Of a stretch of DNA of 43,340 nucleotides, positions 9,001 through 12,000 are shown piece after piece (positions within the stretch are counted from its first letter, which is position 1; each line of letters starts with the position of its first letter). The DNA comes from Candidatus Sumerlaeia bacterium (lineage in GTDB: Bacteria; Sumerlaeota; Sumerlaeia; SLMS01). The DNA lies in assembly GCA_038208905.1 (NCBI GenBank), contig JBBQYG010000012.1, forward strand, positions 1 through 43,340, written 5' to 3'. A program made the position numbers.

Positions 9001-12000
9001 AACAAGCACGCTGAAGCGCGCTCGGGAATTGATTGGGCAGCCTCCCTCCGGCTTAAGCCGGAGGCAAGTAGAGTCCCGCTGAAGCGGGACAAGAACCAGG
9101 AACTCCCAAAGCTCCTCAACCATCCCGCAAGCCCGCTCCAACGGGAGGATTCGGAGTTTCGTCCCCACTGCCCGCTTAAGCGGGCAACCCATTGCCGCCG
9201 GCTTCAACCGGGGGACCCCGGCCACCAATGATCCGAAGCGCGCTTCAGCGTGCTTCCCCTCGGGCTTCAGCCGCTCTCTTCGCATCGACTGTGGCGCCGA
9301 GGCGATGCCGGAGAGCGCTTGCTCCCCGCCGCCAGCCACTTCCCCCCGCGCATCAGGCAGGATTCCACCACGGTTGCTCCAATCCGCCGAAATTCCCCCG
9401 GGAAAAAGTGCTCGAATTGGCATATTTTCACAAAATCTTGCTTGCCGTCGTGCGAATGTCGCGGTCCAACTTCATAGTTGGGTAAGATTTCACTCGACGG
9501 GAGGGTAGGGATCGGTATCACCTGATCGAGACCGGACGGGCTCGGGGCCCTTTAGCCGAAATGATGCGAACGAGTTGCTTCGCCTCATCCCAGGCTCAAT
9601 TATCCCGATCAAGCCGGCGATACCACCTTCAGGAGAACAAGTGAGATGAAGAAGATAATCTACAGCGCGGCAATCGCCGCAGTCGCCATGGCCGCCGCCC
9701 CGGCGTATTCGCAGCTCCCCGCACTTCAGGATTTCACGGGTCTCAACTTGGCCGAGTTGAATGGCCAGGGCGGATGGAACTTCAGCGGCACGAACACGAC
9801 CCCCGTTATCAACGTCACGACAGGCGACGTGGACATCGTTGGCCTTCCCGCGCAGAGCGGCGACCGTTCCATCACCATTGAGGGTTTGGGTCAGGACGTC
9901 GGCCTTTCCTTCGGATCCGCCATTACTCCCACTGGCGGCGCCCTGTATGCCTCCTTCGCGATCGTCGTGACGGCGACGGCTGGCAATTTGGATGCCGACA
10001 CCCCCCCCACCAACCCCTCCGCCAGCAATAACGACGACGATTACTTCTTCCACTTCACAGAGGGAATTCTGGCCAGCGGTTCCGGCTTTCGCGGCCGAAC
10101 CTTCATCGACCGTGGCGCCACGGGATTCTATCTCGGTGTCCGCACGACCTCGGGAGATCCTGGCACCTACGCCCCCACTGAGTACGCATTTGGTACGCCG
10201 ACCTTCGTCGTCGTGAAGCTCAACTTCAATCCGGGCATCACGGACGACACGGTCCAGATTTTCGTGAATCAGGCAGTTGCCTCGGAGCCTGTTTCCGCCG
10301 ACGCCACGGAAGCGACCGCGATCGACTTCGCAGCCATCGGCCGCATTGGCTTCCGTCAGGATAGCGTTCTCGAGACCCCCAACATCCGGATCGATCAGGT
10401 TCGTGTTGGCGAGACGTGGGCCAGCGTCGTTCCCGTCGCCCCCTCCGCCGTCTCCGACTGGTCGATGTTCAACTAAGTCGTCCCCGCCTCACCCGTCTTA
10501 AATCAACCGGGGGCCGCGCAATCATCGCGCGGCCCCCGTTCTGTTTCCATTCCCCGTTCCCTATTCCCCATTCCCAACCGTCCTACCCCTCGTCCTTAAC
10601 CTTGTCGAACGTCTGCTTGTTGTTGGCGCAGCGATAGGCGTCGCGTCCGGTGATGATCTTCTGGGCGAGGAGGGCGCCGAGGGAGTCCTCCATGAGTATC
10701 ATGCCCTGGCGCTTGCCGCCCTGGATCATGGAGGTTACCAAGTGGAGCTTGTTCTCCTTGATCTGGGTCGCCACGCCGCTGGTGTTGACGAGGACCTCCA
10801 GCGCGAGGGCGCGGCCCTTGCCGTCCACGCGGGGGATAAGCTGCTGGCTGATGACGCCGCGCAGGGATTCGGCGACCATGACGCAGATCTGCTTCTGCTG
10901 GCTGATGGGATAGGCGTCGACGATGCGCGCCACGGTGCGCGCCGCGCTGCCGGTGGGGAGCGTGCCGAAGACGAGATGGCCGGTCTCCGCCGCGCTGATG
11001 GCGATGGAGGTGGTCTCCAGGTCGCGCATTTCGCCGATCAGGATGATGTCGGGATCCTCGCGCAGGGCCGCGCGCAAGGCGTTGGCGAAGCTCATCGTGT
11101 GGCGGCCCACCTCGCGCTGGGTCACTTGGCAATGCTTCGCCGGGATCACGTACTCGACGGGGTCCTCCACGGTGATGATGTGGTCGTGGCGGGCCATGTT
11201 GACGAGGTCCACGAGGGCGGCGACGGTGGTCGTCTTGCCGGAGCCCGCAGGGCCCGTGACCATCACGAGGCCCTGATTGTATTCGGTGAAGACGCGCAGG
11301 CTGGCGGGGAGGCCAAGCTCCTCCAGCGTGGGGACAGAGGAGCGGATGATGCGGTAGGAGCCGTCCCACCCGAGGCGCTGCTTGAAGATGTTGCAGCGAT
11401 GGCGCCCGACGCCCTCGATCTCGAGCGCGAAGTCGAGCTGCTGGTTGTCCGCCGCCGTGGCGCGCTGGTCGTCGTTGAGGCCGGAGAAGTTGAGTTCCTC
11501 GGCGCGCTCCGGCGTGAGGATGTCCATCTCCATGTAGCGGATCTGGCCGTGGAGCCGGACGAACGGCGGGCGCCCGACGGTGAGGTGAAGGTCCGAGCAT
11601 CCCCAATGCCGCGCGAGGCGGAGAAACCCGACGAGTGTCTTGGGCTTGGAGAGGGATTCGCCCTCCGCCGTGGCGATGGAACTGGGGGCGGGCGACGGCG
11701 GCGCCGACGCCACGCGCGTGGTGGGCGGCATCGCCGCCGCGGCAGACTGGTTGGCCATGCGCTGGGCGGCGGTGGGGGGCATCTGGCCAACGGATTCGTC
11801 GCCCTGGCCGGAACCGCTGCCGAGCTGCGCGTGGAGGTCGGCCAGTTGGCTCTCCGTCACGAGAAGCCGCGCGAGCAGGAGTTGGCCGAGGTCGCTGGCC
11901 ACGCCGGCGTCGATCTCGTCGTGGATCATCTCCGCCTGCTTGCGCGTGAGGAGCCTGCCCTGCAGCGCCAGCTCCAGCAATTGTCGATCGGATTCCGTCA

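What a model noticed while it worked through the whole genome (the two positions that open the first line are those of the whole stretch)
9646..10476. Phylum-wide extreme C-terminal W-tag on unrelated secreted proteins
42 proteins of about 40 unrelated families in this genome end in [ST]-V-x-[DNE]-W-[SMV]-[LMI]-[YF] plus at most one or two residues. They are Sec-exported enzymes and adhesins; orthologues keep the tag across Candidatus Sumerlaeota, and homologues in other bacteria carry a T9SS sorting domain at the same place. I read it as a new, very short C-terminal export or surface-sorting signal; its receptor is unknown.
Evidence so far: 30 vs 2.2 (regex, call 25); W at -4 88 vs 42, at -5 70 vs 42; PSSM>=8 43 vs 0.5. 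40 BLAST clusters of 48. Pfam: GH18, M14, reprolysin, endonuclease I, PAD, cadherin, FG-GAP, Golvesin_C etc., 23 of 44 none. Signal peptides 25 of 41 vs 17.6% (p 5e-10, call 153). Orthologues: 6 of 6, 18 of 20 with W in last 7, chitinase 21 of 29 aromatic tails. Other proteomes: G025 6 of 129 vs 0.05, G066 2 of 310 vs 0.15, G074 0 of 70. Swapping: 52 of 149 homologues T9SS-like, 16 of 20 confirmed PF18962; short forms W/F-tagged 34 of 36. No SprA_N, Por_Secre_tail, exosortase, PEP-CTERM in G000. Loci: C34:4313-5368, C248:3191-4363, C124:8939-9907, C12:9646-10476, C135:1381-2073, C173:5294-6841, C85:1-852, C18:24 [...]
(Added by a program. Inside this text positions count along the whole contig: contig position 1 is position 1 of the stretch shown here. 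"Call 12" and the like, gene names such as g00115 and contig names such as C1 are that model's own, and its searches are not shown. The text may have been shortened before it was handed on; [...] marks where a part breaks off. The agent that wrote the report below was given it as the finding of a first reader that could run no searches.)

Follow-up and report, generated by a model that had tools for sequence, protein, structure and literature searches.

The report
Short tryptophan tail on exported proteins
About two in a hundred proteins of this Sumerlaeota bacterium, unrelated exported enzymes and adhesins, end in the same ten-residue tryptophan tail, which sits exactly where other bacteria carry known surface-sorting signals and so is probably a new, very short sorting signal whose receptor is still unknown.

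Summary
With my own gene calls, 68 of 3269 proteins end in S-S-V-x-[DN]-W-x-[LM]-[YF]-(0-2 residues), against 0.55 in truncation controls. They fall into 58 BLAST clusters, and 50 of 64 have a signal peptide against 653 of 2911 others. Conservation covers about 11 residues only. It acts on the protein, not the DNA. AlphaFold leaves the tail unstructured. The tail persists in homologues at about 30% identity across the phylum, including both deep classes. Directly after the same domain, Verrucomicrobiota and Planctomycetota carry PEP-CTERM and Bacteroidota a T9SS domain. SprA is absent from 75 of 75 Sumerlaeota genomes, with a working positive control. Exosortase is absent from 66 of 75. Best reading: a new minimal C-terminal sorting signal that acts after Sec export. 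Its function and receptor are inferred, not shown. One lead: tagged genes lie beside genes of an expanded pilin-like family more often than other genes do.

The parts
9646..10476 (+). Gene of the finding: a 276-aa exported protein of no Pfam or NCBIfam family that ends in the W tail.
   Evidence: ORF list. No family in Pfam or NCBIfam. PSSM score 25.5.
9646..9714 (+). Predicted Sec signal peptide, about residues 1-23. The cleavage site is not determined.
   Evidence: My heuristic places a signal peptide at residue 0. The model has a helix at 3-14 with pLDDT 54-57, apart from the domain.
9721..10410 (+). Beta jelly-roll domain, residues 26-255, of the concanavalin-like lectin or lyase kind. It belongs to a very large unnamed 'choice-of-anchor' family.
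   Evidence: pLDDT is 83-95 with strands from 26 to 255. Foldseek matches calreticulin globular domains, L-type lectins and polysaccharide lyases at TM 0.4-0.5. The family has 9544 representatives at E <= 0.001.
10411..10443 (+). Linker, residues 256-266, between the last strand of the domain and the tag.
   Evidence: pLDDT falls to 68 over residues 261-270. The columns are poorly conserved.
10444..10473 (+). The W tail, residues 267-276 (S-A-V-S-D-W-S-M-F-N). W272 lies at 10459-10461 and the stop codon at 10474-10476.
   Evidence: Sequence. The W column is kept in 0.90 of 21 homologues against a mean majority fraction of 0.52. pLDDT is 48 over residues 271-276.
10508..10538 (.). G+C-rich hairpin with T runs on both strands, between this gene and the convergent ATPase gene. 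It is a likely two-way terminator, so the gene end is clean.
   Evidence: Terminator scan: 12-14 pairs, all or nearly all G-C.
1098..2240 (+). Second tagged gene of the window, 380 aa, no Pfam family. Its tail ..SAPSWNLYE is encoded at 2208-2237.
   Evidence: PSSM score 23.2. Pfam and NCBIfam find nothing.
28991..31969 (-). Third tagged gene of the window, 992 aa, with Golvesin_C and fn3 domains. Its tail ..SSAAQWVLF is encoded at 28994-29023.
   Evidence: PSSM score 21.5. Pfam.

Best explanation
The tail S-S-V-x-[DN]-W-x-[LM]-[YF]-(0-2 residues) is a minimal C-terminal sorting signal of Candidatus Sumerlaeota.

Proposed steps:
1. The proteins cross the inner membrane by Sec and fold in the periplasm.
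2. The last 8-11 residues hang free behind a short linker.
3. A periplasmic or outer-membrane receptor reads them as a linear peptide, probably by strand addition or a hydrophobic pocket for W, L/M and Y/F.
4. The receptor passes the protein across the outer membrane or holds it on the cell surface.

The tail does the job that the T9SS C-terminal domain, PEP-CTERM and IPTL-CTERM do for homologous proteins in other phyla.

Shown: the tag exists; it stands only at the extreme C-terminus; it is selected at the protein level; it goes with signal peptides; it is kept across the phylum; it swaps with known sorting signals; the T9SS is absent.

Inferred: recognition, compartment, fate of the tail (cleaved or not) and the receptor.
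For: - **Excess.** 68 proteins against 0.55 in controls. W stands 102 and 73 times at -4 and -5 against 45 expected.
- **C-terminal only.** Among 16,159 internal W positions, 32 score >=11. The best scores 15.7 and the hits show no common context.
- **Unrelated carriers.** 58 clusters from 68 proteins. They include reprolysin, trypsin-like, esterase with CBM20, CotH, LTD, FG-GAP, NHL, BNR and F5/8-C families and a GH18.
- **Exported.** Signal peptide in 50 of 64 against 653 of 2911.
- **Short and free.** Information content is above background only from about -7 to +3 around W. Tail pLDDT is 48-68 behind confident domains in two unrelated families.
- **Protein-level selection.** Synonymous codons vary, all three stop codons are used, and the downstream DNA is not conserved. 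The tail is kept from 36% to 65% G+C genomes.
- **Kept in homologues.**
  - Locus family: of 24 readable tails other than the query's, 20 have the W tail by eye, 2 are the second type with W, and 2 are the second type with F.
  - NHL family: 11 of 12 readable tails.
  - L013 family: W is invariant and Y is at 0.92, against a mean majority fraction of 0.50.
- **Phylum-wide.** G001 8 of 264, G074 2 of 129, G066 4 of 316.
- **Not seen outside the phylum.** 0 of 126 and 0 of 160 sampled ORFs. None of the 22 readable ends among 74 non-Sumerlaeota homologue loci has it.
- **Swapping at the same residue after ..W..VTP.**
  - PEP-CTERM-type tails in Luteolibacter, Akkermansiaceae, Planctomycetales and Chthoniobacterales (the last is an unpublished genome, G079).
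  - 16 T9SS-type ends by eye in Bacteroidota, Rhodothermales and Chlorobi.
  - PF18962 in 18 of 55 scanned representatives and IPTL-CTERM in one.
- **Machinery for the known signals is missing.** SprA_N is in 0 of 75 Sumerlaeota genomes and in 3 of 3 positive controls. Exosortase is in 0 of G000 and G066, in 9 of 75 in the phylum, and in 4 of 4 positive controls, one of them the unpublished G079.
Against: - No experiment and no call shows export, location or binding.
- No receptor was found.
- The register is loose: 35, 30 and 3 proteins have 3, 4 and 5 residues after W. Position -1 is D or N in only 30 of 68.
- In the closed genome G066 the crude W count is flat, 11 at -4/-5 against 11 at -8/-9. 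Only the PSSM shows the tag there, 4 against 0.1.
- Family f11, sampled as G017, has few and weak tags: 2 of 290, with scores 9.5 and 12.6.
- Only two outside genomes were sampled, 200 kb each.
- Signal peptides and ORF starts are my own heuristic calls.
- At least one hit, L039, an ATP-grasp protein, is surely not exported.
Confidence: 0.6

Rival explanations
1. The same signal, with a named reader. The tail is the handle by which a type II secretion or type IV pilus-like machine takes its cargo. That machine would be built from the phylum's expanded GspG-like pilin family, secretins and T2SSE ATPases. The tail would add to a pilin-like protein as an extra strand. This would be the first linear signal for such a machine.
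For: - G000 has 32 pilin-like genes at E <= 1e-20, with N_methyl and weak T2SSG matches.
- 5 of 68 tagged genes lie directly beside one on the same strand, against 30 of 3165 other genes (odds ratio 8.3, p 7e-4). 4 of the 19 pilin-like genes that have a same-strand downstream neighbour are followed by a tagged gene.
- The pair 'pilin-like gene then L013-family tagged gene' is kept in 13 of 15 genomes, over families f1, f2, f3, f4 and f15, down to 27% identity.
- The same adjacency is seen once among 4 tagged genes in G066. In G001, 1 of 8 tagged genes is adjacent, in convergent orientation.
- The pilin family is in 75 of 75 Sumerlaeota genomes with 11 to 40 or more copies. Five outside genomes show only N-terminal helix matches.
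- G000 has four secretin genes.
- Passages of a review state that no signal specifically recognised by a T2SS has been identified (PMC8047123).
Against: - 63 of 68 tagged genes have no pilin-like neighbour.
- In the NHL family the adjacency is kept in only 3 of 13 loci, all from family f1.
- PilT and the T2SSE ATPase beside the locus gene are not found beside its homologues in 34 loci.
- Family f11 has the pilin family but few tags.
- The co-occurrence at phylum level is a single evolutionary event.
Confidence: 0.15
2. No dedicated receptor. The aromatic tail is a sticky end. It holds secreted proteins on the cell's own envelope polysaccharide or outer-membrane surface, or on insoluble substrates such as chitin, by stacking of W and Y/F.
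For: - W and Y/F are the best-kept residues.
- The carriers are polymer-degrading enzymes and adhesins.
- The free, unstructured tail suits weak multivalent binding.
- The swaps with surface anchors fit retention as well as they fit export.
Against: - The conserved S-S-V-x-[DN] stretch before W and the fixed spacing W-x-[LM]-[YF] are more specific than stacking needs.
- Two aromatic residues give little affinity.
- Proteins that already carry carbohydrate-binding modules also have the tail: CBM20, CBM96 and F5/8-C.
Confidence: 0.1
3. The tail is a processing or quality-control mark. A periplasmic PDZ protease (HtrA or Ctp type) reads it, as such proteases read C-terminal aromatic motifs of outer-membrane proteins. 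It would control maturation or turnover rather than location.
For: - G000 encodes five PDZ proteins.
- The motif sits at the extreme C-terminus and ends in an aromatic residue in 35 of 68 proteins.
- From recall, not from a call: PDZ domains of DegS and Prc bind such ends.
Against: - The distance from W to the free end varies (3, 4 or 5 residues). A carboxylate-anchored PDZ would not tolerate this.
- PDZ proteases are universal (14 of 14 control genomes), but the tag is confined to one phylum.
- Swapping with sorting signals is not expected of a degradation mark.
Confidence: 0.07
4. The tail is a relic: the first strand of a lost T9SS-type C-terminal domain, left behind when the phylum lost the T9SS, without a present function.
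For: - By eye, T9SS domains of homologues start with an aromatic or hydrophobic residue, then x, [VLA], Y, P-N-P (L138, L141). The spacing is the same as in W-x-[LM]-[YF].
- The second tail type equals the first strand of a domain that precedes T9SS domains.
Against: - A relic would decay. Instead W is invariant or nearly so at 25-35% overall identity.
- The tail sits on 58 unrelated clusters.
- It is kept in all sampled classes.
- The resemblance was not tested statistically.
Confidence: 0.03
5. Artefact: chance, gene-calling error, or a repeated DNA element that overlaps gene ends.
For: ORF calls are my own. One clear false positive, L039.
Against: - Truncation and decoy controls.
- Varied codons and stop codons, with no conserved downstream DNA.
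- The gene end does not depend on the choice of start codon.
- A terminator follows the locus gene.
- Contigs of three other runs were laid on the locus, and none shows a change in the tail codons it covers. One of them differs at four places just after the stop codon. Depth is low, and one run may be the source sample.
Confidence: 0.01

Closest known systems
T9SS C-terminal sorting domain (Por_Secre_tail, PF18962)
   Same: It sits at the C-terminus of Sec-exported, unrelated enzymes and adhesins. It occupies the same place in homologues of the locus protein. About 2% of the proteome carries the tag.
   Different: The T9SS signal is a folded domain: the Pfam model has 75 positions, and passages of a review give about 100 aa (PMC8047123). 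Here only about 11 residues are conserved and they are predicted unstructured. The SprA translocon is absent from 75 of 75 genomes.
PEP-CTERM with exosortase, and the kindred IPTL-CTERM
   Same: A short motif after a linker at the C-terminus of exported proteins of many families. It stands directly after the same domain in Verrucomicrobiota and Planctomycetota homologues and, as IPTL-CTERM, in one representative.
   Different: Those signals have three parts: a motif, a membrane helix and a basic end. A membrane-embedded enzyme reads them. The W tail ends 3-5 residues after W with no helix. Exosortase is absent from G000, G066 and 66 of 75 genomes.
Beta-signal of outer-membrane barrel proteins, read by the BAM complex (recalled knowledge)
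   Same: A short C-terminal motif rich in aromatic and hydrophobic residues on Sec-exported proteins.
   Different: The beta-signal is the last strand of a barrel and ends on the aromatic residue. Here the carriers are soluble enzyme and adhesin folds. 33 of 68 have 1-2 polar residues after the aromatic residue. The tail is not part of the fold.
Dockerin-cohesin, and strand-donation tags of pilus subunits (recalled knowledge)
   Same: A common C-terminal module on unrelated secreted enzymes that docks them to a shared partner. The pilin-like neighbours recall subunit docking.
   Different: From recall, dockerins are calcium-binding modules of about 70 aa. No repeated acceptor module or scaffold was found here. 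No binding has been shown.

Membership tests
T9SS cargo (C-terminal domain type A, PF18962) | A folded C-terminal domain of about 75-100 residues that matches the family model. | tested here: not met
   No PF18962 match on 43 tagged proteins. No match in the six-frame scan of G000, though that control was silent. Conservation is limited to about 11 residues. The model does detect the domain in 18 of 55 homologues from elsewhere.
T9SS cargo (C-terminal domain type A, PF18962) | The genome encodes the SprA/Sov translocon. | tested here: not met
   SprA_N is in 0 of 75 Sumerlaeota genomes. It is found in 3 of 3 genomes whose homologues end in T9SS-type domains and in 0 of 1 Verrucomicrobiota genome.
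PEP-CTERM / exosortase substrates | A PEP motif followed by a membrane helix and a basic cluster. | tested here: not met
   The proteins end 3-5 residues after W, so there is no room for a helix. My PEP-CTERM heuristic found 0 of 3269, but it also found 0 of 126 in the Akkermansiaceae sample, so it is not validated.
PEP-CTERM / exosortase substrates | The genome encodes an exosortase. | tested here: not met
   PF09721 is absent from G000 and from G066. It is present in 9 of 75 genomes in the phylum: all 7 of f11, plus G057 and G059. It is in 4 of 4 positive controls, one of them the unpublished G079.
Outer-membrane barrel beta-signal | The motif is the last strand of a beta-barrel and the aromatic residue is the last residue. 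| tested here: not met
   35 of 68 end on the aromatic residue; 33 go on for 1-2 more residues. The carriers are enzyme, lectin and repeat folds. The tail lies outside the fold in two models.
PDZ-read C-terminal peptides (DegS, Prc or Ctp type) | A fixed register of the motif relative to the free carboxyl end. | tested here: inconclusive
   The register varies (3, 4 or 5 residues after W in 35, 30 and 3 proteins). This argues against a classical PDZ ligand but does not exclude internal-motif binding. Five PDZ proteins are present.
Type II secretion substrates | Export depends on a secretin and pseudopilus machine. No sequence feature defines the class (PMC8047123, passages). | not testable with these tools
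   Secretins (4), T2SSE ATPases and pilin-like genes are present. Dependence cannot be computed.
Any NCBIfam or Pfam C-terminal sorting model | A curated model matches the tail. | tested here: not met
   No model matches the last residues of the 43 proteins scanned in Pfam or of the 43 scanned in NCBIfam release 20.

The most novel reading that the evidence does not exclude
The W tail is the address label of an undescribed outer-membrane export or surface-attachment pathway confined to Sumerlaeota. In it, a linear peptide of about ten residues suffices, with no folded domain and no membrane anchor. The phylum's own expanded pilin-like family reads it. This would be the first linear targeting signal known for a type II secretion-like machine.
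Probability: 0.3. Interest if true: 0.9.

Novelty: new variant of a known kind. Interest (0 to 1): 0.78.

Why it matters
C-terminal sorting signals (LPXTG, PEP-CTERM, the T9SS domain) have each led to the discovery of a sorting machine. This tail marks about 2% of the proteome of an uncultured, globally spread phylum of polymer degraders. It is far shorter than any known signal for crossing or decorating the outer membrane, and it has no membrane segment, so a different kind of reader must exist.

It has three uses:
- It gives a rule for predicting the secretome in Sumerlaeota.
- It gives a handle (a peptide pull-down) for finding the receptor.
- If the tail alone is sufficient, it gives a ten-residue export or display tag.

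In print: three searches of the paper library found no description of such a tail. They were 'Sumerlaeota' (143 papers, listing only), 'choice-of-anchor' (33 papers, listing only), and C-terminal sorting with PEP-CTERM, T9SS and tryptophan (3 papers, listing only). Term searches within two Sumerlaeota genome papers found none either (PMC8092238; PMC10866078). Supplements were not read.

Tried and rejected
- **Complex prediction.** There is no result.
- **RNA.** No RNA holder is listed for the locus.
- **DNA pattern scan.** The scan for tail codons over 75 genomes was too noisy, for example G000 37 against 21 in the reversed control. It serves only as a hint: G001 gave 186 against 104.
- **PEP-CTERM heuristic.** It gave 0 everywhere, including the Akkermansiaceae control, so it was not used as evidence.
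- **Family f11 as an in-phylum contrast** (it has exosortase). G017 shows few tags, 2 of 290, but the difference from 2% is not significant.
- **Taxonomy of W-tailed metagenome representatives.** The cluster look-up gave no organism names for the 10 proteins asked.
- **Word-indexed homologue searches.** They returned only 5, 9 and 11 proteins.
- **A second family outside the phylum.** The CotH-LTD protein L036 matched only LTD repeats of giant proteins in five genomes, and their ends lay off the loci.
- **Window context.** PilT and the T2SSE ATPase beside the gene are not conserved beside its homologues.
- **Second tail type.** Absent from G000 and from the samples of G001, G074 and G066.
- **F or Y in place of W.** Only one new case in G000.
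- **Internal copies of the motif.** Chance level.
- **Solved structures by sequence.** Nothing significant.
- **ESM Atlas.** Only unnamed clusters.
- **Rfam.** No match in the window.
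Full report
**The locus.** The ORF at 9646-10476 (+) encodes a 276-aa protein that ends ..PSAVSDWSMFN.
- It has a signal-peptide-like N-terminus by my heuristic and no Pfam or NCBIfam family.
- A G+C-rich hairpin with T runs on both strands lies at 10508-10538. 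It separates the gene from a convergent T2SSE-type ATPase gene at 10586-12226.
- Upstream lie an IS200-like transposase gene (8537-8986, -) and a PilT-like gene (7035-8099, -).
- Rfam finds nothing in the window.
- AlphaFold2, run with 21 homologues, gives a confident beta jelly roll for residues 26-255 (pLDDT 83-95, pTM 0.82). Confidence then falls to 68 over residues 261-270 and to 48 over 271-276, with no strand in the tail.
- Foldseek places the domain with calreticulin globular domains, L-type lectins and polysaccharide lyases at TM 0.4-0.5. The body is therefore probably a carbohydrate-binding or lyase-like module.

**Is the tail more than chance?** I laid the genome (4,236,191 bases, 301 contigs, 64.5% G+C) and called genes with a self-trained codon model. 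This gave 3314 genes, 3269 of them with 60 aa or more.
- The end of a gene is fixed by its stop codon, so start-codon errors do not matter for this test.
- Tryptophan stands 102 times at position -4 and 73 times at -5, against 44.9 expected and 34-55 at all other positions from -1 to -12.
Looser forms give 28 against 1.85, 25 against 1.0 and 60 against 10.1 in truncation controls.
- A W-anchored PSSM, iterated to convergence, gives 68 proteins at score >=9. Twenty truncation controls average 0.55, and 6 of 14,933 rejected ORFs pass.
- Information content exceeds the random-column level (0.22, sd 0.07) clearly only from about -7 to +3 around W.
- The consensus is (V)-(P)-(P/T)-S-S-V-x-[DN]-W-x-[ML]-[YF], followed by nothing (35 proteins), one mostly polar residue (30) or two residues (3).
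- Among 16,159 internal tryptophans, only 32 score >=11 and none scores above 15.7. They show no common context.
- Codons for the conserved S, V and L vary. All three stop codons occur, and the 40 bases after the stop are not conserved.

So this is a peptide under selection, not a DNA repeat.

**Who carries it?**
- Without their last 15 residues, the 68 proteins form 58 BLAST clusters. The largest has 7 members.
- A signal peptide is called in 50 of 64 complete ones, against 653 of 2911 other proteins (p 1.8e-20). Four N-terminally partial ORFs were dropped. Several of the 14 'negatives' show a visible hydrophobic N-terminus in the listing.
- I scanned 40 of the 68 in Pfam, plus the three in the window. 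Of the 40, 18 have a family and 22 have none. The families are reprolysin-like, trypsin-like, esterase with CBM20, CotH, lamin-tail domain, FG-GAP, NHL, BNR/sortilin, F5/8-C, arylsulfotransferase, CBM96, PQQ-like and others.
- One hit, L039, is a cytoplasmic ATP-grasp enzyme and surely a false positive.
- A GH18 chitinase (C186) is tagged. Its paralogue C40 ends ..VKDFISLN, with F for W.
- NCBIfam matches 7 of the 40, never on the tail. The matches include choice-of-anchor D, DNRLRE and pieces shared with myxosortase- and rhombosortase-dependent peptidases.
- The window holds three tagged genes: 1098-2240 (+), 9646-10476 (+) and 28991-31969 (-).

**Conservation.** Close relatives are named Candidatus Sumerlaeia or Sumerlaeota in public records.
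- *Locus family.* Across the 75 genomes held for the phylum, the locus protein has homologues in 22, at 29 places. Three loci gave no tblastn hit and one runs off its contig. Of the 24 readable tails other than the query's, 20 carry W three or four residues from the end in a tail-like context (judged by eye). Two end ..LPVALTSWVLE and ..LPIVLAAWTVE, and two end ..VSAFSID and ..ASEFIVE. Body identity is 25-36% for most, yet the W column is kept in 0.90 of sequences.
- *L013 family.* In 12 sequences with 22-56% identity, W is one of 8 invariant columns and the Y/F column stands at 0.92, against a mean of 0.50. Its model again leaves the last residues at pLDDT 49 behind a confident fold.
- *NHL family (L030).* 11 of 12 readable tails are tagged. 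The twelfth, in G002, ends ..VPAELSGFNAD.
- *Sampled stretches of other genomes:*
  - G001 (another class, 36% G+C): 8 of 264 ORFs. W at -4/-5 is 17, against 2 at -8/-9.
  - G074 (another class): 2 of 129, with W counts 11 against 3.
  - G066 (closed genome): 4 of 316 against 0.1 in controls, although the crude W count is flat there, 11 against 11.
  - G017 (family f11): only 2 of 290, both weak.
- *Other runs.* Contigs of three other public runs show no change in the tail codons they cover. One related strain differs at four places just after the stop codon. Depth is low, and one run may be the source sample.

**What stands at the same place elsewhere.** The domain of the locus protein belongs to a very large family with no Pfam model. 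A profile search of 1.84 billion representatives finds 9544 at E <= 0.001.
- Of the best 150, 25 end in the W tail (PSSM >=9). All 25 are 157-995 aa long, and most have about 270 aa.
- I scanned in Pfam the 55 of the other 125 that have 900 aa or fewer. Of these, 18 carry PF18962 at their end (16 over the cut-off), one carries an IPTL-CTERM motif and one a FlgD-Ig domain.
- A scan of one genome per species for the conserved stretch [VLI]DE[LI]RV[GSA]T[STA]W gave 80 loci.
  - Of the six Sumerlaeota loci, five end in the W tail 9-12 residues after ..W..VTP, and one ends ..LPIVLAAWTVE.
  - Of the 74 others, 52 run on beyond the locus and 22 can be read to their end. None of the 22 has the W tail.
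  - Four go straight from ..VT(P) into a P-E-P motif, a hydrophobic stretch and an R-rich end: Luteolibacter, Akkermansiaceae, Planctomycetales and Chthoniobacterales. The last is the unpublished G079.
  - Sixteen end in T9SS-type domains by eye (Bacteroidota, Rhodothermales, Chlorobi). Two are odd.
- Two earlier hits show the same thing: P0008 carries PF18962 and P0009 a PEP-CTERM-like end.

The W tail therefore occupies, to the residue, the slot of three known sorting signals.

**The machines for those signals.**
- *T9SS.* SprA_N is found in 3 of 3 genomes whose homologues end in T9SS-type domains (a Flavobacterium, a Pontibacter and a Rhodothermales genome). It is not found in Luteolibacter or in the closed Sumerlaeota genome G066. 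It is found in none of the 75 Sumerlaeota genomes, 43 of them at least 90% complete. G000 itself is 93.9% complete.
- *Exosortase.* It is found in 4 of 4 genomes with PEP-CTERM-type homologues (one unpublished), but not in G000 or G066. In the phylum it is in 9 of 75: all seven of family f11, plus G057 and G059.
- *Outside samples.* 0 of 126 Akkermansiaceae ORFs and 0 of 160 Pontibacter ORFs carry the tail. These samples are small.

**How it most likely works.** The facts fit a sorting signal that acts after Sec export. The tail is confined to the extreme end and sits on exported proteins of unrelated families. It is free of the fold, under strong selection, and interchangeable with known anchoring or export signals, in a phylum that lacks their machines. 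Because it has no membrane segment, an inner-membrane sortase-like enzyme cannot read it. Because it is not a fold, it cannot work like a T9SS domain. I therefore expect a periplasmic or outer-membrane receptor that binds a linear peptide. I put this at 0.6. What is shown and what is inferred is listed under the best explanation.

- G000 has 32 genes (E <= 1e-20) of a GspG-like pilin family, with the N-methylation motif and weak T2SSG matches.
- Five of 68 tagged genes lie directly beside such a gene on the same strand, against 30 of 3165 others (odds ratio 8.3, p 7e-4). An earlier, cruder count gave 6 of 68 against 17 of 651 untagged signal-peptide proteins (p 0.016).
- For the L013 family, the pair 'pilin-like gene, then tagged gene' is kept in 13 of 15 genomes across five families of the phylum. 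The other two loci are cut by contig ends.
- The adjacency recurs once among 4 tagged genes in G066. In G001, 1 of 8 is adjacent, in convergent orientation.
- The family is in all 75 genomes, with 11 to 40 or more copies. Five outside genomes show only matches to the N-terminal helix.
- Against it: 63 of 68 tagged genes have no such neighbour. The NHL family keeps the neighbour in only 3 of 13 loci. The pilus genes beside the locus gene itself are not conserved beside its homologues. Family f11 has the pilin family but few tags.
- I give this specific reading 0.15. The co-folding job that could have moved these odds was never accepted.

**Comparison with the known, and verdict.** The closest systems are the T9SS C-terminal domain, PEP-CTERM with exosortase (and IPTL-CTERM), and, more remotely, the beta-signal of barrel proteins and docking modules. 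The tail works like the first two in position and in the kind of carrier, but it fails their defining features (see the membership table). No Pfam or NCBIfam model covers it, and the paper searches named under 'why it matters' found no description.

I rate it a new variant of a known kind: a C-terminal sorting signal of an unprecedented minimal form. The bolder possibility is that it marks a new pathway. The function remains to be shown.

Noticed in passing
L062, L064, L065, L068; L299:1462-2616; P0063, P0064, P0090, P0096, P0104, P0133: There is a second extreme C-terminal tail, [LV]-P-[VA]-x-L-[ST]-x-[FW]-x-[VIL]-[ED]. It replaces the W tail in some paralogues and in one orthologue (in G002) within the phylum. 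It equals the first strand of a domain (LPVELTSF..NW.T..E.NN.GFE.ER) that precedes T9SS domains in P0036 and P0134. It is absent from G000 and from the samples of G001, G074 and G066.
   Followed up: partly
G000 C44:7435-8100 with C44:8143-9060; C48, C49, C34, C248; loci L277-L290: A GspG-like pilin family is expanded in every Sumerlaeota genome, with 11 to 40 or more copies in 75 of 75. Five outside genomes lack full-length members. The operon 'pilin-like gene then W-tailed protein' is kept in 13 of 15 genomes.
   Followed up: partly
Genomes G013-G019 (family f11), G057, G059: Exosortase is present in all seven genomes of one family of the phylum and in two others. The one f11 genome sampled (G017) has few and weak W tails. 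This may be a natural contrast for finding the receptor.
   Followed up: partly
window 9721-10410 and alignment A2: The domain of the locus protein is a lectin- or lyase-like jelly roll. Its family has 9544 representatives at E <= 0.001 and no Pfam or NCBIfam model. It is found with the W tail, T9SS domain, PEP-CTERM and IPTL-CTERM ends, so it is a textbook 'choice-of-anchor' domain without a name.
   Followed up: partly
L138, L141 and other T9SS-type homologues: By eye, the first strand of T9SS domains in homologues (aromatic or hydrophobic, x, [VLA], Y, then P-N-P) has the same spacing as W-x-[LM]-[YF]. This hints that the tail derives from, or mimics, that strand. It was not tested.
   Followed up: no
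window 34127-39714 (-) and 28991-33646 (-): A pilM, pilO and secretin gene set (PilM_2, PilO, and Secretin with an STN domain) is followed on the same strand by two unnamed genes and then the 992-aa tagged Golvesin_C protein. G000 has four secretin genes in all.
   Followed up: no
window 8537-8986 (-): An IS200-like (Y1_Tnp) transposase gene lies between the PilT-like gene and the locus gene.
   Followed up: no
window 40080-42482 (+) and 3348-5645 (-): There is a Csm6-like protein (HEPN and 6H domains) with no CRISPR array examined nearby, and a family B DNA polymerase gene.
   Followed up: no
G000 C5:45246-46721 and C40:15974-19261: Rare tails have F in place of W..NVEDFMMWQ and ..VKDFISLN.
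   Followed up: partly
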